The notes under the pieces: model-generated
What the model saw: only the letters and a program-made list of their open reading frames with translations
Database searches by the model: none
Told to the model about the DNA's origin: nothing
Translations under genes and position numbers: made by a program
In this document: in pieces, positions 8,154 to 19,171 of the stretch
Numbering within the stretch: position 1 is the stretch's first letter
Layout of the letters: each line of letters begins with the position of its first letter
Sequence record: NC_019767.1
Length of the DNA stretch: 40,155 nucleotides
Source: Escherichia phage HK544
Strand: one strand, 5' to 3'

Positions 8154-8342
8154 ATGGAACCACTGGTAGTAGTGTTTGGAATATTCGGCTGGCTGATAAA
8201 TCTAATTGTGATTTTTTATTTATTACGGTTTAGCACAAGGGCAAATGAACAAGTTGAAGCCCTTAAAGAGATAAATAAAAAGCAAGATGCGCAAATAGAT
8301 TTATTAATACAAGTCGCTCACCAAAGAAAAGACAGTTTATAA
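8154..8342 (+). CDS. small membrane protein (moron), N-terminal TM helix plus short coiled-coil
   Basis: 62 aa; strong SD AAGGAGG; hydrophobic N-terminus VVVFGIFGWLINLIVIFYLL; visibly AT-rich compared with flanking tail genes; own terminator downstream; paralogue of 13498..13722. Confidence 0.5.
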   Translation: MEPLVVVFGIFGWLINLIVIFYLLRFSTRANEQVEALKEINKKQDAQIDLLIQVAHQRKDSL

Positions 8343-8348
8343 CTCACG

Positions 8349-8372
8349 ACCCGCTATCAAGCGGGTTTTTTT
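8349..8372 (+). terminator. rho-independent terminator after the moron
   Basis: ACCCGC-TATCAA-GCGGGT hairpin followed by TTTTTTT. Confidence 0.55.
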
Positions 8373-8384
8373 ATGGGTGAAAAT

Positions 8385-11300
8385 ATGGCTACGTTGCGCG
8401 AACTGATCATCAAAATATCTGCAAACTCTCAGTCATTCCAGTCTGAAATTTCTCGTGCTTCAAGAATGGGGAATGACTATTACCGGGTAATGCAGACTGG
8501 AGGACGCCAATCGGCCGCAGCTTCGCGTGAAACTCAGCGTGCCTTGGCTGAGGTAACTAGTCAAATAAACACCGCGAAGGCCTCAGCACTGGGAATGGCT
8601 GGTGCATTTGCTGGAGCATTTGCCACTGGACATCTTATATCTCTTGCGGATGAATGGAGCTCAGTAAATGCCCGTCTGAAGCAGGCCACGCAGTCCAGCG
8701 ATGATTTCCAGGCATCACAGCGCGAATTAATGGCGATCAGCCAGAGAACGGGTACTGCTTTTGCTGATAACGCCAGTCTTTTTGCACGTTCGGCTTCTTC
8801 CATGCGGGAATATGGTTACAGGTCTGAGGAAGTACTGAAAGTTACCGAGGCCATTTCTACAGGATTGAAATTGTCCGGAGCCAGTTCTGCGGAAGCCAGC
8901 TCGGTGATCACTCAGTTCAGCCAGGCACTGGCGCAAGGGGTTCTGCGCGGTGAAGAGTTTAATTCAGTAAATGAAAGCGGTGATCGTGTTATTCGTGCTC
9001 TGGCTGCAGGAATGGGGGTTGCCCGTAAAGATCTGAAGGCAATGGCGGATGATGGAAAGCTGACCGCCGATAAGGTTGTTCCTGCACTGATTAGTCAGCT
9101 TGGTACGCTGCGGGATGAATATGCAGCCATGCCTGATACCGTATCATCCTCTGCAACCAAAGTTGAAAACGCCTTTATGGCCTGGGTTGGTGGTGCGAAT
9201 GATGCCAGCGGTGCAACAAAAACGCTTACCGGAATAATGAATGGTGTTGCGAATAATATTGATACGGTTGCCACGGCGGCGGGAGCTCTGGTTGCAATTG
9301 GTGTAGCCCGATATTTTGGCAATATGGCGTCTTCTGCGGGCTCTGCAACTGCCGGGTTAATCACTGCTGCCAGAAACGAAGTGGCTCTTGCTGAGGCACA
9401 GCTCAGAGGGACACAGATAGCAACAGCCAGAGCGCGGGCGGCATTGTATCGTGCGCAGCAGGCGGTTATGGCTGCCCGTGGTACAGAAAAACAGGCTGCA
9501 GCAGAAGCGAAACTGGCAACCGCACAGGCTTCACTTACCCGTAATATTGCTGCCAGAACAGCGGCACAGGCAACGCTGAATAACGTTACGTCAGTTAGTA
9601 GTCGGTTGTTAAGCGGTGCTCTGGGGCTGGTTGGTGGTGTGCCTGGACTTGTCATGCTGGGGGCGGCGGCCTGGTACACAATGTATCAGAACCAGGAGCA
9701 GGCCAGAGAATCAGCGCGTCAGTATGCCGCAACAATCGACGAAATTCGCCAGAAAACGTCTGCAATGTCACTTCCTGAAGCGGCAGATAATGAAGAAAAG
9801 ACGCGGCAGGCACTGGAGGAACAAAATCGCCTGATTAGAGAACAGGAAGGAAAAATTCGCGGACTGAAAAATCAAATTGCTGATTATCAACGTTGGCTTG
9901 ATGAAAGTTCGCAGAGTGGTTCGGGTGCTGAAATCATCCTTAAAGGGCTTGCCGAAGCAACAAATCAACTGGCAGTTGAACAGTCTCGCCTCACTCAAAT
10001 GCAGGGCAAAGCGCAATCCATTCAGGATGTGCTTGCCGGGCTGGAGGAGCGACGAGTGGCGTTGATCCGTCAACAGGCAGCGGAACAAAACAAAGCGTAT
10101 CAGTCCCTGTTGATCATGAATGGGCAGCATACCGAGTTTAATCGCCTTCTCGGGCTTGGTAATGAATTACTTCAGCAGCGACAGGGGCTGGTGAATGTAC
10201 CATTACGGCTGCCACAGGCAACCCTGGATGATAAACAGCAGACCGCACTGAATAACAGCAAGCGCGAACTGGCTCTGTCCCGCCTTAAGGGGGAAGCGCG
10301 TGAGCGTGCCCGACTGGGCTATGCTGCGGATGATCTCGGCTTTGTGGGGGAGGCATATCAGACAGCCAGACAGAATTATATCAATAACTCACTGGATGCC
10401 TGGCGAAATAACCAGGCAAATAAACCCAAAGCGCATAAAAAGACCGAAGCGGAAAAAACAGAAGATATTTATAAACGGCTGATTAAACAGCAAAAAGAAC
10501 AGATAGCACTGGCAGGGCAGAATACTGAACTGGCTAAGATGAAATATCAGGTCAGTCAGGGCGAACTTGCTTCTCTGACAGAAGCCCAGAAAAAGACGGT
10601 ATTGCAGAATGCTGCGCTGATTGACCAGGTTAAATTGCGTGAGCAACTGCGAAATTACGAAGCCAACCTTGCTGACAGTAACGCCAGCGCCCGCGCAGCC
10701 AATGAAGCGCAACTGCTGGGCTACGGGCAGGGAACCAGGTTCCGTGAAAGACTTCAGGAGCAGTTCAATCTGCGTAAGGAGTTTGAGCAGAAGAATACCG
10801 ATCTTCTCCGCCAGCGTCAGGCTGGTGAAATCGACGAGACGTTCTATCAGCAGGGGCTGGCACTTAATAAGCGCTACCTCGAAGAGCGCCTGCGCGACCA
10901 GGAGGGATATTACGCAGCTTCTGATGCGCAGCGTGACGACTGGATGACGGGACTGTCTGAGGGTTATGCGAACTGGGTGGACGAAGCTACTGATTATTCT
11001 TCCATGGCCGCTGACGGCATGAAGCAGGCCATGGGTGGCGCGGTCACCACGATCACCGACATGCTCAATGGCAACGTTGACAGCTGGAAGGACTGGGGCG
11101 TGAGCGTACTGAAGATCATCCAGAACGTTCTGGTGAACATGGCTGTTGCTAACGGCGTCAGTTCAATTGGTTCTCTCTTCAGCTTTGGCGCATCTTCCGC
11201 CGCTGCCGCCAGTAGCGGTACTGCAATTCAGAACGCTGGCGCGAACTTCACCTTTAACGCGAAGGGTAATGTTTACGACTCTCCGTCCCTGAGCGCATAC

Positions 11301-11642
11301 AGCAATGGCGTGTTTCAGACCCCTCAGCTTTTTGCTTTTGCCAAAGGAGCGGGTGTGTTTGCAGAGGCTGGACCTGAAGCCATTATGCCGCTTACCCGTG
11401 CTGCTGATGGTTCGCTTGGCGTTCGGGCTGTTGGCACTGGTGGTGGTCAGGCTGTATCTTCGGCTCCACAGGTTTACATCACCATCGATGGCAACGGAAA
11501 TACTTCCACGCAGACTTCACCCGGCCTTGAGCAATTTGGTGCTGATGTCGGTAAATATATTGATCAGCGATATAAGCAGAACATCATGCGAGATATTCGC
11601 CCTGGCGGTGACATCTGGAACGCAATGAAAGGAACCCGATAA
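8385..11642 (+). CDS. tail tape measure protein (lambda H-like)
   Basis: About 1085 aa, largest ORF of the tail cluster, Ala/Gln-rich coiled-coil with hydrophobic segments; follows G/G-T. Start taken at ATG 8385 (SD GGGTGA); in-frame ATG at 8373 lies inside the terminator T-run. Confidence 0.85.
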   Translation: MATLRELIIKISANSQSFQSEISRASRMGNDYYRVMQTGGRQSAAASRETQRALAEVTSQINTAKASALGMAGAFAGAFATGHLISLADEWSSVNARLKQATQSSDDFQASQRELMAISQRTGTAFADNASLFARSASSMREYGYRSEEVLKVTEAISTGLKLSGASSAEASSVITQFSQALAQGVLRGEEFNSVNESGDRVIRALAAGMGVARKDLKAMADDGKLTADKVVPALISQLGTLRDEYAAMPDTVSSSATKVENAFMAWVGGANDASGATKTLTGIMNGVANNIDTVATAAGALVAIGVARYFGNMASSAGSATAGLITAARNEVALAEAQLRGTQIATARARAALYRAQQAVMAARGTEKQAAAEAKLATAQASLTRNIAARTAAQATLNNVTSVSSRLLSGALGLVGGVPGLVMLGAAAWYTMYQNQEQARESARQYAATIDEIRQKTSAMSLPEAADNEEKTRQALEEQNRLIREQEGKIRGLKNQIADYQRWLDESSQSGSGAEIILKGLAEATNQLAVEQSRLTQMQGKAQSIQDVLAGLEERRVALIRQQAAEQNKAYQSLLIMNGQHTEFNRLLGLGNELLQQRQGLVNVPLRLPQATLDDKQQTALNNSKRELALSRLKGEARERARLGYAADDLGFVGEAYQTARQNYINNSLDAWRNNQANKPKAHKKTEAEKTEDIYKRLIKQQKEQIALAGQNTELAKMKYQVSQGELASLTEAQKKTVLQNAALIDQVKLREQLRNYEANLADSNASARAANEAQLLGYGQGTRFRERLQEQFNLRKEFEQKNTDLLRQRQAGEIDETFYQQGLALNKRYLEERLRDQEGYYAASDAQRDDWMTGLSEGYANWVDEATDYSSMAADGMKQAMGGAVTTITDMLNGNVDSWKDWGVSVLKIIQNVLVNMAVANGVSSIGSLFSFGASSAAAASSGTAIQNAGANFTFNAKGNVYDSPSLSAYSNGVFQTPQLFAFAKGAGVFAEAGPEAIMPLTRAADGSLGVRAVGTGGGQAVSSAPQVYITIDGNGNTSTQTSPGLEQFGADVGKYIDQRYKQNIMRDIRPGGDIWNAMKGTR

Positions 11643-11644
11643 AA

Positions 11645-11983
11645 ATGGCTATCGAAACTTTCACCTGGTGCCCACGACTTAACGCTGAGGCAGATATAAA
11701 TTTCCGCGTCAGGAAAGCACAGTTTGGCGATGGATATGAGCAGGTTTCAGGGGATGGATTGAACACCAGAATCCAGCAATGGACGCTCAACTTCACTGGC
11801 AACGAAACCTACATTTCTGCCATTAAATCTTTTCTCGACAGGCATGAAGGAACGAAAGCCTTTCAATGGAAGCCGCCGCTCGAGCCTTTGGGTTTGTATC
11901 GTTGCGAAACGTATAAACCCACCGGGCTGGGTGCGGGAAAATTCAACCTTGAAGCAACATTCATCCAGGCATTTAAACCATGA
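11645..11983 (+). CDS. minor tail protein (lambda M-like)
   Basis: 112 aa directly after tape measure; contains FGDGY motif as in lambda gpM; conserved order H-M-L-K-I-J. Confidence 0.65.
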   Translation: MAIETFTWCPRLNAEADINFRVRKAQFGDGYEQVSGDGLNTRIQQWTLNFTGNETYISAIKSFLDRHEGTKAFQWKPPLEPLGLYRCETYKPTGLGAGKFNLEATFIQAFKP

Positions 11984-12738
11984 GCTTAAACGCAGACTAT
12001 CAGAAGCTTGAATCCGGAAACGATGTTCGTCTGATTGAGGTGGACGGTTCTTCCTTTGGGCTAACGGACGTTCTCCGCTTTCACAATTACCGCATTCCCC
12101 ACACGGAAGCGGAAATCATCGCCGCTGGTGGGGATGAGTCCAAGCTTCCGGCGAAACCAATCTGGTGGCAGGGAAATGAATACGCCGCCTGGCCGTATCA
12201 GCTGGAAGGCCTGGAAAAATCAACCAGTGGGAGCAATGCAACGCCATCACTGACGGTTGCGAACATCGAAAGCTCTATTTCTGCCATGTGTCTTGCGTAT
12301 GACGATCTGCTGCAGGCGAAAGTCACTATTCACGACACAAAAGAGAAATATCTCGATGCCAGAAATTTCGCGGACGGCAACCCCACAGCAGACCCGACTC
12401 AGGAAAAGCTGCAGGTCTGGTATATCGACGGGAAAACTGGCGAGCTTGCCGGTGAAACCGTTGAATTTGTTCTGTCCAGCCCGATGGACCTGCAGGGGCA
12501 AATGATCCCGACGCGACAGCTTCATTCCCTGTGTACCTGGTGCATCCGGAATAAATATCGTACCGGCGACGGCTGCGACTATGCCGGCACCCGCAATTTC
12601 GATAAAAACAACAACCCGGTAAGCGATCCGTCGCTGGATGAATGCAATGGCACGCTGACGGCCTGCAAACTCCGATTCGGCGAAAATAACGAACTCTCGT
12701 TTGGTGGCTTCCCGGGCACGTCTTTGATCAGGAGTTGA
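11980..12738 (+). CDS. minor tail protein (lambda L-like)
   Basis: 252 aa, ATGA overlap with M; Cys-rich C-terminus (CTWC...C...C) as in lambda gpL. Confidence 0.65.
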   Translation: MSLNADYQKLESGNDVRLIEVDGSSFGLTDVLRFHNYRIPHTEAEIIAAGGDESKLPAKPIWWQGNEYAAWPYQLEGLEKSTSGSNATPSLTVANIESSISAMCLAYDDLLQAKVTIHDTKEKYLDARNFADGNPTADPTQEKLQVWYIDGKTGELAGETVEFVLSSPMDLQGQMIPTRQLHSLCTWCIRNKYRTGDGCDYAGTRNFDKNNNPVSDPSLDECNGTLTACKLRFGENNELSFGGFPGTSLIRS

Positions 12739-12739
12739 T

Positions 12740-13450
12740 ATGCGTCAGAAAACCATAGATGCGATTATGGCGCATGCTGCAGCTGAATATCCTCTTGAGT
12801 GTTGCGGCGTGGTGGCGCAGAAAAGCCGCGTTGAACGTTATTTCCCGTGCCGGAATCTTGCCGCGGCGCCGGAGGACAATTTTGTCCTTTGCCCCGAAGA
12901 CTACGCAGCTGCTGAGGACTGGGGAACGGTGATCGCCATCGTTCACAGTCACCCTGACGCCACAACGCAGCCGAGCGAACTGGATAAAGCGCAATGCGAC
13001 GCAACGCTTTTACCCTGGCATATTGTGAGCTGGCCGGAGGGGGATTTACGCACCATCCAGCCGCGCGGAGAACTGCCACTGCTGGAGCGTCCGTTTGTGC
13101 TTGGACACTTCGACTGCTGGGGGCTGGTAATGAGCTATTTCCGGCAAACGCATGGTATCGAGCTCCACGATTACCGGGTGGATTATCCCTGGTGGGAAAA
13201 CGCCTATCCGGACAATTTTTATCAGGATTGCTGGTATGAATGCGGATTCAGGGAGTTTGACGGCCCGCCTCAGGAAGGGGACCTCGTCATCATGCAGGTG
13301 CAGGCCGATAAGTGGAATCATGCCGGGATTTTACTGGAGGGTAACATGCTGCTGCACCACCTGTACGGACATCTGAGCCAGCGCGTGCCGTATGGTGGCT
13401 ACTGGCAGGAAAGGACGATGAAGATTCTTAGACATCAGAATTTTATTTAA
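12740..13450 (+). CDS. tail assembly protein K (MPN/JAB plus NlpC/P60-like domains)
   Basis: 236 aa; N-terminal ECCGVV...HSHP (JAB/MPN-like) and a C-terminal Cys/His segment; position after L. Confidence 0.7.
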   Translation: MRQKTIDAIMAHAAAEYPLECCGVVAQKSRVERYFPCRNLAAAPEDNFVLCPEDYAAAEDWGTVIAIVHSHPDATTQPSELDKAQCDATLLPWHIVSWPEGDLRTIQPRGELPLLERPFVLGHFDCWGLVMSYFRQTHGIELHDYRVDYPWWENAYPDNFYQDCWYECGFREFDGPPQEGDLVIMQVQADKWNHAGILLEGNMLLHHLYGHLSQRVPYGGYWQERTMKILRHQNFI

Positions 13451-13497
13451 CAAACTGTCACTGATACTATCGTGTAGTACACAGCAAGGAGAACGAT

Positions 13498-13722
13498 ATG
13501 TATACAGTTGGGTTTGGTTGGATCTTCGTCGGTATTTTTATTGGGTTAATTCTCTGGTTTTTCATCAACCGCGCCAGCGTCAGAGCGAACAGGCAGGTTG
13601 AATTACTTGAGTCTATCGACCAGAAATTATCAAAAATAGTAGATCCAAACTTCGAGGCAAATAACAAAGACCAGTCGAAAGAAAACTACCTTGAAGAAGC
13701 AAGGAAAAAAGCTGGGCTTTGA
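13498..13722 (+). CDS. small membrane protein (moron), paralogue of 8154..8342
   Basis: 74 aa; SD AAGGAGA; N-terminal TM helix FGWIFVGIFIGLILWFFI then RANRQVELLESIDQK, matching RANEQVEALKEINKK in the 8154 ORF; own terminator downstream. Confidence 0.5.
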   Translation: MYTVGFGWIFVGIFIGLILWFFINRASVRANRQVELLESIDQKLSKIVDPNFEANNKDQSKENYLEEARKKAGL

Positions 13723-13737
13723 GAGCGTAAATTAACA

Positions 13738-13760
13738 AACCACCTACGGGTGGTTTTTTT
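13738..13760 (+). terminator. rho-independent terminator after the second moron
   Basis: AACCACC-TACG-GGTGGTT hairpin followed by TTTTTTT. Confidence 0.55.
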
Positions 13761-13771
13761 ATGGGGGCAGC

Positions 13772-14380
13772 ATGCAAGAGGTAATGACAAGAATTGAGCT
13801 AAGTGGCGTGCTAGCTAAGACATATGGAAGGGTTCATCACCGTCTGGTTCGCACTACTGCTGAAGCCATTAATGCACTCGCGAAAACCATCAATGGATTC
13901 GAGAAATTCTTAAACACAAGCAAGGCCCGAGGGCTGACGTATGCCGTTTATAGAGATAAAAAGAATATTGGCGTTGATGATCTCGGCTTTCCCGTCACCG
14001 GCGAAGTGATCCGGATTGTCCCTGTAGTAATAGGGAGTAAAAAGGCTGGTCTTTTGCAGACGATCCTGGGGGCCGTGCTTATTACTGCTGCTGTGTTGAC
14101 TGGCCCCGGCGGTATTGGCGCTGCTTTCGCTGCTGGTGGATTGACGGGGTTTGCTGCTGCCACTGGTGCCTCGTTGGTCCTCGGTGGGGTTATTCAGCTG
14201 CTTTCACCGCAGCCATCAGGCATAGCCAGTAAACAAAGCGCAGATAACCGTGCATCGTATGCGTTTGGCGGGGTAACCAACACTGCAGAGCAAGGCTACC
14301 CAGTGCCTCTGCTTTATGGTAAGCGTCGAATCGGCGGAGCGATTATTTCTGCCGGAATTTATGTCGAAGATCAGCAGTAG
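13772..14380 (+). CDS. tail assembly protein (lambda I-like)
   Basis: 202 aa with Gly/Ala-rich hydrophobic C-terminal half, between K and J as in lambda. Confidence 0.6.
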   Translation: MQEVMTRIELSGVLAKTYGRVHHRLVRTTAEAINALAKTINGFEKFLNTSKARGLTYAVYRDKKNIGVDDLGFPVTGEVIRIVPVVIGSKKAGLLQTILGAVLITAAVLTGPGGIGAAFAAGGLTGFAAATGASLVLGGVIQLLSPQPSGIASKQSADNRASYAFGGVTNTAEQGYPVPLLYGKRRIGGAIISAGIYVEDQQ

Positions 14381-18937: not shown

Positions 18938-19171
18938 ATGAAAAGGCTAATTATCTGCATAGCGGGCGCTTTAATGCTGTCTGGTTGCGCTGGTGTACTT
19001 GAGAAACAGAAACCGATTTGCAGCGGCACGGCATATATGGGTGGCCATGAGAATACCGTTATGATTTACGCCGTTCGAAAGCAAAACAACCAGACGCAAT
19101 ACCGGGCCGGATATCCCTTTAACTGGCGCTGGGTAAGTGCGAACACATTCACAAGCACGACATGTAAATAA
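18938..19171 (+). CDS. small lipoprotein moron, possibly a Cor-like exclusion protein
   Basis: 77 aa with signal peptide and lipobox LSGC (Cys17); AT-rich promoter-like leader 18831-18937; own terminator; location next to tail fibre genes is where cor-type genes are found. Confidence 0.45.
   Translation: MKRLIICIAGALMLSGCAGVLEKQKPICSGTAYMGGHENTVMIYAVRKQNNQTQYRAGYPFNWRWVSANTFTSTTCK

What the first reader, a model, noticed from the sequence alone, without database searches (positions are those of the whole stretch)
13498..13760. Moron 2: paralogous small membrane protein inserted between tail genes K and I
A 74-aa ORF (SD AAGGAGA) has the same architecture as the 8154 ORF and a shared block (FINRASVRANRQVELLESIDQK versus LLRFSTRANEQVEALKEINKK), and is again followed by a hairpin plus T7 terminator. 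Two independent insertions of one small membrane-protein family inside a single tail operon is unusual and points to a selected accessory function such as exclusion, membrane targeting or host modulation.
Basis: seen in the sequence. Interest (0 to 1): 0.6.

Follow-up and report, generated by a model that had tools for sequence, protein, structure and literature searches.

The report
Known phage moron: YebO-like membrane protein
This small gene between tail genes K and I is the already-catalogued "gp20 moron" of HK022/HK97-type coliphages, a YebO-family membrane protein related to HK97 gp15, a protein known to block infection by other phages; it is real and conserved, but its own function has not been tested.

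Summary
Window 13498-13722 is a 74-aa ORF with SD AAGGAGA. An 8-bp hairpin and T7 terminator follow it. It lies in a 321-bp low-GC gap between tail genes K and I.

It is not new. The DNA is 99.5-100% identical to HK022, HK97 and ten other HK/mEp phages. GenBank has called HK022 gp20 a "moron gene product" since 2000.

Both this ORF and the 8154 ORF (HK97 gp15) pass the Pfam YebO threshold and fall in one PHROG. They are real but old paralogues: 43% identity over 44 aa, with no DNA-level cassette similarity.

gp20-type genes in Enterobacter, Serratia, Pantoea and Proteus always lie in siphophage tail operons, in at least four different slots. They are under purifying selection. In 7 of 8 lineages a TGnTAnnnT extended -10 motif lies 25-33 nt upstream of the start.

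Phage-borne copies form a clade apart from chromosomal yebO. HK97 itself has an amber codon in gene 20.

The most likely role, inferred from gp15, is a prophage-expressed inner-membrane superinfection-exclusion protein. This is untested. Interest is low to moderate.

The parts
13462..13470 (+). Extended -10 promoter-like element TGATACTAT, 27 nt upstream of the start codon; candidate moron promoter
   Evidence: Pattern hit; it is one of only 4 + strand hits in the first 13.5 kb. The same TGnTAnnnT motif lies 25-33 nt upstream of the start in 7 of 8 gp20-type lineages and in K-12 yebO; the background chance is about 1.4% per 23 nt. No transcription data.
13486..13492 (+). Shine-Dalgarno AAGGAGA, 5 nt before the ATG
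   Evidence: Read directly from the sequence.
13498..13722 (+). Gene 20 homologue: 74-aa YebO-family protein. Predicted TM helix at about residues 5-23, invariant juxtamembrane NRASVRANRQVELLESI, conserved C-terminal YLEEARKKAGL.
   Evidence: ORF. Pfam YebO 47.7 bits. PHROG 5031. 99.5-100% DNA identity to HK022 gp20 and relatives. Conservation. pN 0.16-0.38 with pS 0.72-0.96. AF2 helix 3-48 and helix 52-71. Hydropathy and charge.
13737..13760 (+). Intrinsic terminator: 8-bp stem, UACG loop, run of seven T
   Evidence: Annotated as a terminator in HK97, HK446 and HK75. A CCACC/GGTGG stem also follows gp20-type genes in L008 (K|I slot) and L006 (H|M slot).
13763..13767 (+). GGGGG, the SD-like element for gene I, placed directly after the terminator T-run
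   Evidence: The same terminator, T-run, AT, GGnG, ATG layout is seen for all K|I cargos and for gene 15 before H.
12740..13450 (+). Tail gene K (left flank of the insertion)
   Evidence: Pfam Prok-JAB + NlpC/P60; annotated as K in HK97.
13772..14380 (+). Tail gene I (right flank of the insertion)
   Evidence: Pfam Lambda_tail_I; annotated as I in HK97.
8154..8342 (+). Paralogue: gene 15 (HK97 gp15, a known superinfection-exclusion moron) between T and H
   Evidence: 99.6-100% DNA identity to HK97 and HK75 gene 15. Pfam YebO. Function from PMC3594210.
8348..8374 (+). Terminator of the gene 15 moron
   Evidence: annotated in HK97 and HK446.

Best explanation
Shown:
- This is the gp20 moron of HK022/HK97-type lambdoid phages. 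It is a self-contained unit of candidate extended -10 promoter, SD, 74-codon ORF and intrinsic terminator, inserted between tail genes K and I.
- The protein belongs to a phage-borne branch of the YebO family. It is an old paralogue of HK97 gp15, which this phage also carries between T and H.
- The gene is under purifying selection and is not needed to build a tail.

Predicted:
- The protein has a four-residue periplasmic N-terminus and one transmembrane helix.
- It continues as a cytoplasmic helix with the invariant motif NRASVRANRQVELLESI, then a variable linker, then a conserved C-terminal YLEEARKKAGL.

Inferred, not shown:
- In a lysogen the unit is transcribed from its own promoter and stopped by its own terminator, while the tail operon stays silent. 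During lytic growth, antiterminated late transcription reads through it.
- The protein sits in the inner membrane and, like gp15, blocks DNA entry by superinfecting siphophages after adsorption.
- Its specificity probably differs from that of gp15.
For: Identity. The DNA is 99.5-100% identical to 12 distinct HK/mEp phages. HK022 gp20 is annotated 'moron gene product'. PGAP calls it 'YebO family protein' in E. coli prophages.

Family. Pfam YebO hit above threshold and shared PHROG 5031. Homology to gp15 is significant.

Insertion. N15, HK225 and mEp237 have K directly followed by I. GC dips at the moron.

Coding constraint. Synonymous sites are saturated (pS 0.72-0.96) while pN is 0.16-0.38. 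Sixteen columns are invariant across 28 proteins.

Promoter. The TGnTAnnnT motif sits at a conserved distance from the start in 7 of 8 lineages, within otherwise diverged upstream DNA.

Topology. A hydrophobic 19-mer is followed by three Arg, with none on the N-terminal side. AF2 gives a continuous helix over residues 3-48.

[quoted passage not shown] It is a predicted inner-membrane protein. [quoted passage not shown]

Context.
- Every gp20-type gene examined sits in a siphophage tail operon next to tape-measure or tail-tip genes, in four different slots.
- The same K|I slot carries lipoproteins in other phages.
- The window also carries a cor-like exclusion gene.
Against: - No experiment on gp20 was found in the searchable literature.
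- The strict sigma-70 scan finds no promoter upstream. The -35 is poor (TTTATT).
- gp20 and gp15 are only 43% identical in the core and have unrelated C-terminal tails, so a shared function is not assured.
- Per PMC3594210, overexpressing or deleting chromosomal YebO did not affect HK97. Family membership alone therefore does not imply exclusion.
- With a cytoplasmic C-terminus almost nothing faces the periplasm, so the protein cannot simply cap an incoming tail tip.
- HK97 carries an amber codon in gene 20 and is a successful phage, so any benefit is dispensable.
- gp20 occurs with HK97-type, HK022-type and other tape measure proteins, so it lacks the tight tape-measure linkage seen for gp15.
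- There is no PADLOC hit.
Confidence: 0.5

Rival explanations
1. Lysogenic conversion unrelated to phage exclusion. The phage copy keeps the still unknown cellular activity of chromosomal YebO, or mimics or competes with it. It would bind the same host partner through the shared juxtamembrane motif and change envelope physiology of the lysogen.
For: The WFF-NRASVRA-Q-ELLE core is shared with chromosomal YebO: 73% identity over 30 aa to K-12 YebO, and mean core identity of 0.50. Chromosomal yebO sits in a conserved locus next to mgrB and yobH, which encode small envelope proteins. Overexpressing or deleting YebO has no effect on HK97 (PMC3594210).
Against: The phage-borne proteins form their own clade (197 of 200 bootstraps). 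They have lost the YebO N-terminal extension and the C-terminal DFIRLIPER tail. They are found only inside tail operons, which fits a phage-directed role better than a housekeeping one. Their closest characterised relative, gp15, is an exclusion protein.
Confidence: 0.2
2. A lytic-cycle accessory. The gene is expressed mainly as part of the late tail transcript. It would act in the infected cell, for example by blocking secondary infection during late growth or by modulating the membrane before lysis, rather than acting from the prophage.
For: It lies in and is co-oriented with the late operon. No strong consensus promoter is found. The terminator is followed directly by the SD of gene I, so read-through expression is built in.
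Against: A terminator right after the ORF only makes sense for a transcript that starts locally. An extended -10 motif is conserved upstream in 7 of 8 lineages. HK97 has an amber codon in the gene, and N15 has no cargo in the slot, so the gene is not needed for lytic growth or tail assembly.
Confidence: 0.15
3. A decaying or selfish passenger with no function, or an ORF that is not translated.
For: HK97 carries a premature amber codon at codon 33. The cassette is rare: 7 of 5426 complete E. coli genomes.
Against: There is strong purifying selection with saturated synonymous sites. Invariant motifs persist across Enterobacter, Serratia and Pantoea. The ORF is intact and annotated in the other 11 phages. 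A strong SD is present.
Confidence: 0.05
4. A recent duplication of the gene 15 cassette (SD, ORF, terminator) within this genome.
For: Both cassettes end in GGTTTTTTTATGGG.
Against: The DNA does not align outside that 14-mer, and the terminator stems differ. The same junction follows unrelated cargos such as lipoproteins in other phages. The proteins are only 43% identical. Each subfamily has its own relatives in other genera.
Confidence: 0.02

Closest known systems
HK022 gp20 (AAF30371, 'moron gene product'; also called 'similar to HK022 gp20' in HK446 and HK75)
   Same: It is the same gene. DNA identity is 99.5% over the whole cassette. The slot (K|I), length (74 aa) and terminator are the same.
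   Different: Nothing of substance. HK022 lacks the second paralogue (gene 15), which this phage has.
HK97 gp15 (superinfection-exclusion moron; Cumby et al. 2012, as summarised in PMC3594210)
   Same: Same Pfam family and PHROG. Same build: a very short N-terminus, one TM helix, then the juxtamembrane R-x-S-x-R-A-N-x-Q-V-E motif. Same moron layout in the same tail operon, with its own terminator.
   Different: Only 43% identity over 44 aa, with an unrelated C-terminal tail. gp15-type genes always lie directly before an HK97-type tape measure gene. gp20-type genes occupy several slots and occur with different tape measure types. An exclusion function has been shown for gp15 only.
Chromosomal YebO of Enterobacterales (E. 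coli b1825)
   Same: Pfam PF13974. The core IGLILWFFINRAS-R-N-Q-ELLE is 73% identical over 30 aa. The K-12 gene also has an extended -10 (TGGTAGAAT) about 25 nt upstream of its start.
   Different: YebO is about 90 aa, with a roughly 13-residue N-terminal extension and a DFIRLIPER or LVRLVAER C-terminus. It sits in the fixed htpX-kdgR-yobH-(mgrB)-yebO-yobF-cspC-rlmA locus. It separates from the phage clade in 197 of 200 bootstraps. Its function is unknown, and it has no effect on HK97 (PMC3594210).
Other envelope-located exclusion morons in tail regions (Cor of HK022/N15/phi80; lipoprotein cargos in the K|I slot)
   Same: They are small envelope proteins encoded as extra genes in the tail region, each ending in a terminator and then the SD of the next tail gene.
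   Different: They are unrelated in sequence. They are outer-membrane or periplasmic lipoproteins with signal peptides, not an inner-membrane helix with a cytoplasmic tail.

Membership tests
YebO family (Pfam PF13974) | Match to the family HMM above the curated gathering score | tested here: met
   47.7 bits against a cutoff of 27 (gp20); 38.7 bits (gp15).
YebO family (Pfam PF13974) | Single N-terminal TM helix followed by the W-F/Y-F/Y-x-N-R-A-S-x-R juxtamembrane motif | tested here: met
   Hydropathy and charge; alignments; AF2 helix 3-48.
Chromosomal YebO orthologue group | Conserved synteny htpX-kdgR-yobH-(mgrB)-yebO-yobF-cspC-rlmA, about 90 aa, C-terminal (D)F(I/V)RL(I/V)(P/A)ER | tested here: not met
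   The window gene lies between tail genes K and I. It has 74 aa and ends in YLEEARKKAGL. It is a phage-borne paralogue, not the orthologue.
Moron (as defined in PMC3594210, which attributes the term to Juhala et al. 2000) | An extra gene between two genes that are adjacent in related phages | tested here: met
   K and I abut in N15, and HK225 and mEp237 also have no insert. The gap here is 321 bp.
Moron | Base composition different from the flanking genes | tested here: met
   GC about 0.40 against about 0.53-0.58 in the flanks.
Moron | Own transcription terminator | tested here: met
   Hairpin plus seven T. This is sequence evidence only.
Moron | Own promoter, with expression from the repressed prophage | tested here: inconclusive
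   The strict sigma-70 scan is negative. An extended -10 motif is conserved in position in 7 of 8 lineages. Expression cannot be tested with these tools.
gp15-type superinfection-exclusion proteins | Sequence membership in the gp15 subfamily | tested here: not met
   gp15-type proteins are monophyletic in 200 of 200 bootstraps and exclude gp20. Core identity is 0.44.
gp15-type superinfection-exclusion proteins | Position directly upstream of an HK97-type tape measure gene (PF06120) | tested here: not met
   The window gene 20 lies in the K|I slot. HK022 and mEp235 combine gene 20 with a lambda-like tape measure protein.
gp15-type superinfection-exclusion proteins | Blocks DNA entry of a superinfecting phage without blocking adsorption | not testable with these tools
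   Needs plating, adsorption and DNA-entry assays.

The most novel reading that the evidence does not exclude
The phage-borne YebO clade (gp15-type, gp20-type, and the longer Serratia and Proteus variants) would be a modular family of inner-membrane blockers of phage DNA injection. They would act from the cytoplasmic face through the invariant juxtamembrane helix, which they share with chromosomal YebO. Their variable C-terminal tails would set different specificities. On this reading, a phage that carries both gp15 and gp20 excludes two different classes of siphophage. The host partner of that helix would then be a still unidentified general factor in siphophage genome entry, which would also give the orphan protein YebO a function.
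Probability: 0.12. Interest if true: 0.6.

Novelty: already known. Interest (0 to 1): 0.25.

Why it matters
This is a rediscovery of the classic HK97/HK022 morons, so it adds little on its own. The residual value is that gp20 has apparently never been tested. HK97, the phage used for the gp15 work, carries an amber codon in gene 20.

The comparative picture points to a simple experiment: does gp20 exclude phages, and which ones? That picture consists of a phage-only YebO clade, always in tail operons, in several slots, with an invariant cytoplasmic motif and a conserved promoter-like element.

A positive result would extend the one known example (gp15) to a family. It would also give a handle on how siphophage DNA crosses the inner membrane.

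Tried and rejected
- Cassette duplication: the DNA alignment of the two morons shows only the 14-mer GGTTTTTTTATGGG in common. The junction survey shows this is the general terminator-plus-SD design, so duplication was rejected.
- Strict sigma-70 scan: no hit upstream of either moron. A relaxed scan gave only weak -35/-10 pairs. The extended -10 motif was kept as the candidate.
- Independent captures from the chromosome: first suggested because gp20 is closer to K-12 YebO than to gp15. This was weakened by the tree, in which all phage-borne copies group together. A single old capture followed by divergence within phages is now preferred, with low resolution (91 columns).
- Linkage of gp20 to the HK97-type tape measure protein: it held in all non-E. 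coli loci but fails in HK022 and mEp235.
- Libraries: PADLOC gave no hit. NCBIfam gave nothing meaningful. Rfam gave no hits anywhere in the window.
- Literature: Cumby 2012 and Juhala 2000 are not held. One search on 'YebO' alone was swamped by the surname Yeboah. No held paper discusses gp20.
- Fold search: not run, because a two-helix 74-residue model would give meaningless matches.

Full report
**What is there**

The window is the genome of an HK97/HK022-like lambdoid siphophage; its first 25 kb match mEp234, HK446, HK633 and HK75 at 96-97% identity. At 13498-13722 there is a 74-codon ORF. AAGGAGA lies 5 nt upstream of its ATG. Downstream are an 8-bp hairpin (13737-13756, UACG loop) and seven T.

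The left flank is K (12740-13450; Prok-JAB + NlpC/P60). The right flank is I (13772-14380; Lambda_tail_I). In N15 the K and I genes abut, and HK225 and mEp237 also lack an insert. The 321-bp gap here is therefore an insertion, and its GC content (about 0.40) is well below the flanks (about 0.55).

**It is already known**

- The 401 bp around the ORF are 99.5-100% identical to 26 records from 12 distinct phages: HK022, HK97, HK75, HK106, HK446, HK542, HK633, mEp234, mEp235, mEp506, mEpX1 and ECP1.
- In the HK022 record the ORF is gp20, 'moron gene product'.
- HK446 and HK75 annotate it as 'similar to HK022 gp20', with a rho-independent terminator.
- PGAP names it 'YebO family protein' in the 7 of 5426 complete E. 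coli genomes that carry it.
- The 8154-8342 ORF is HK97 gene 15, the founding example of a moron.
- gp15 is expressed from the prophage, is a predicted inner-membrane protein, and blocks genome entry of HK97 and HK75. [quoted passage not shown]

**The paralogy is real but old**

- BLASTP between the two proteins gives 43% identity over 44 aa, E = 5e-9. No shuffle out of 2000 reaches the score, even when only the post-TM parts are compared.
- Both proteins pass the Pfam YebO gathering score, and both fall in PHROG 5031.
- At the DNA level the two cassettes share only GGTTTTTTTATGGG at their 3' ends.
- That 14-mer is not a sign of duplication. Every cargo in the K|I slot ends with a terminator, a T-run, AT and a GGnG Shine-Dalgarno a few bases before the next tail gene. 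This holds for the YebO-like gene and for unrelated lipoproteins in HK140, mEp390 and Fraca. It also holds for two-gene cargos in Serratia and Pantoea, and for gene 15 before H.

**Distribution**

- Gene 15 occurs in 7 of the 12 phages, and all 7 also have the gene 20 cassette.
- HK022 has gene 20 only. Its tape measure protein is lambda-like and lacks PF06120.
- The HK022-type tape measure occurs with gene 20 (HK022, mEp235) or with a lipoprotein in the K|I slot (HK140, mEpX2). The modules therefore assort independently.
- Outside E. coli, gp20-type proteins (47-97% identical) occur in Enterobacter, Serratia, Pantoea and metagenomes.
- Every locus examined is a siphophage tail operon, but the slot varies:
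  - K|I: L005/L021, L008, L011, L020, L039.
  - H|M: L006/L023, L013.
  - T|H: L022.
  - In Proteus, a 153-aa variant sits between two tail-tip genes of a different module type (L047).

- gp15-type proteins in Citrobacter, Klebsiella and Raoultella always lie directly before an HK97-type tape measure gene, whatever the tail tip downstream.
- In the scan of one genome per species, 73 of the 80 loci kept were chromosomal yebO. All lay in the htpX-kdgR-yobH-(mgrB)-yebO-yobF-cspC-rlmA locus.

**Relationships**

In the 34-residue core, mean identities are as follows:

| Comparison | Mean identity |
|---|---|
| gp20-type vs chromosomal | 0.50 |
| gp15-type vs gp20-type | 0.44 |
| gp15-type vs chromosomal | 0.33 |

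A neighbour-joining tree separates all phage-borne proteins from the chromosomal ones in 197 of 200 bootstraps, and gp15-type is monophyletic in 200 of 200. Only 91 columns were used and the C-termini differ, so resolution is limited. The simplest reading is one old capture of yebO by a phage, divergence into subfamilies inside phages, and later assembly of two of them in one genome by mosaic recombination.

**Is it a working gene?**

- Against homologues, synonymous sites are saturated (pS 0.72-0.96) while pN is 0.16-0.38.
- Sixteen columns are invariant in 28 proteins, including R25-N31 and L36-I40. The C-terminal (Y/I)L(E/D)EARKKAGL is conserved, whereas the TM residues vary freely except W20.
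- A TGnTAnnnT extended -10 motif ends 25-33 nt upstream of the start codon in 7 of 8 gp20-type lineages, within otherwise dissimilar upstream DNA. The background chance is about 1.4% per 23 nt.
- In the window the motif is TGATACTAT at 13462-13470. K-12 yebO has TGGTAGAAT in the same place.
- The strict -35/-10 scan is negative, so the promoter remains a candidate only.
- HK97 itself has CAG to TAG at codon 33 (window 13594), which explains why its record jumps from Gp19 to Gp21. The phage used for the gp15 experiments therefore lacks a full-length gp20 in a non-suppressing host.
- The HK97 amber codon and the empty slot in N15 both show that the gene is not needed for tail assembly.

**Predicted protein**

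- The most hydrophobic 19-mer is residues 5-23, with no Lys or Arg before it and three Arg just after. By the positive-inside rule this gives N-terminus out and C-terminus in.
- AlphaFold2 gives one helix over residues 3-48, a break at D49-P50-N51, a low-confidence linker and a helix at 52-71 (mean pLDDT 70.8).
- The conserved surface is thus the membrane-proximal cytoplasmic helix plus the C-terminal motif, not the periplasmic side.

**Most likely mechanism**

By homology with gp15, by its exclusive residence in tail operons, and by sharing its slot with other small envelope proteins, gp20 is most likely a prophage-expressed inner-membrane superinfection-exclusion protein. It would interfere with genome entry after adsorption. 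I put this at about 0.5.

Identity, insertion, coding constraint and terminator are shown. Topology and promoter are predicted. Expression in lysogens and exclusion are inferred.

Several points count against it:
- The C-terminal tail differs from that of gp15.
- There is no fixed link to a tape measure type.
- Chromosomal YebO has no effect on HK97.
- HK97 tolerates the loss of the gene.

Rival explanations are a YebO-like or YebO-mimicking conversion function (0.2), a lytic-cycle role (0.15), a functionless passenger (0.05) and a recent duplication (refuted).

**Verdict**

Novelty: already known. Interest: 0.25. That score rests on gp20 being untested and on the family-level pattern found here, which makes a cheap and decisive experiment obvious.

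Noticed in passing
window 13594-13596 (codon 33 of gene 20), compared with L001 (HK97): HK97 carries TAG where the window and the HK022-type annotation have CAG. HK97 gene 20 is therefore an amber pseudogene, and its record jumps from Gp19 to Gp21. A supE host would restore Gln at this codon. A second difference lies at 13478 in the 5' leader.
   Followed up: yes
K|I junction: window 13451-13771; L015 (HK140), L016 (mEp390), L017 (N15), L018 (Fraca), L005, L011: The K|I junction is a variable cargo slot. It is empty in N15, holds lipoprotein genes in HK140, mEp390 and Fraca, and holds a YebO-like gene plus a lipoprotein gene in Serratia and Pantoea prophages. A Providencia phage record lists an Ail/Lom-like 'attachment invasion locus protein' under the match there.
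   Followed up: partly
window 8348-8384 and 13737-13771; the same junctions in L005, L008, L011, L015, L016, L018: Every cargo ends with an intrinsic terminator whose T-run is followed within 2-3 nt by a GGnG Shine-Dalgarno and then the start of the next tail gene. Insertions therefore keep the downstream gene translatable.
   Followed up: partly
window 18938-19171 (+): A 77-aa ORF lies in the position that HK446, HK022 and mEp234 annotate as Cor, the FhuA-directed exclusion protein. This phage thus carries up to three small envelope proteins of exclusion type in its tail region. There is no Pfam hit.
   Followed up: partly
L047 and L048 (Proteus hauseri and P. terrae) 8968-9429: A 153-aa YebO-like protein has the NRASVRADRVVELLEAIDKK core and a long extra C-terminal domain. 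It is inserted in a different type of tail-tip module. L039 (Serratia sp. Ag1) has a 101-aa variant in the K|I slot with a different C-terminus.
   Followed up: partly
L022 (Pantoea rwandensis) 9271-12581: The tape measure gene downstream of the YebO-like gene is split into two overlapping ORFs (9271-11235 and 11172-12581). This could be a frameshift, a pseudogene or an assembly error.
   Followed up: no
window 8373 versus 8385: The mechanical ORF list starts gene H at an ATG inside the gene 15 terminator tail (8373). The HK446 annotation starts its H gene at position 8385 of its own record (MATLREL...); gene 15 and this junction sit at identical coordinates in the two sequences. 8385 is the more plausible start, with GGGTGA as its SD.
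   Followed up: partly
window about 13424-13448: A weak hairpin (ATTCT...AGAAT followed by TTTTATTT) lies at the very end of K. HK446 annotates it as a stem_loop. It could insulate the moron promoter from upstream transcription.
   Followed up: no
whole window: No Rfam family reaches its gathering score on either strand.
   Followed up: yes
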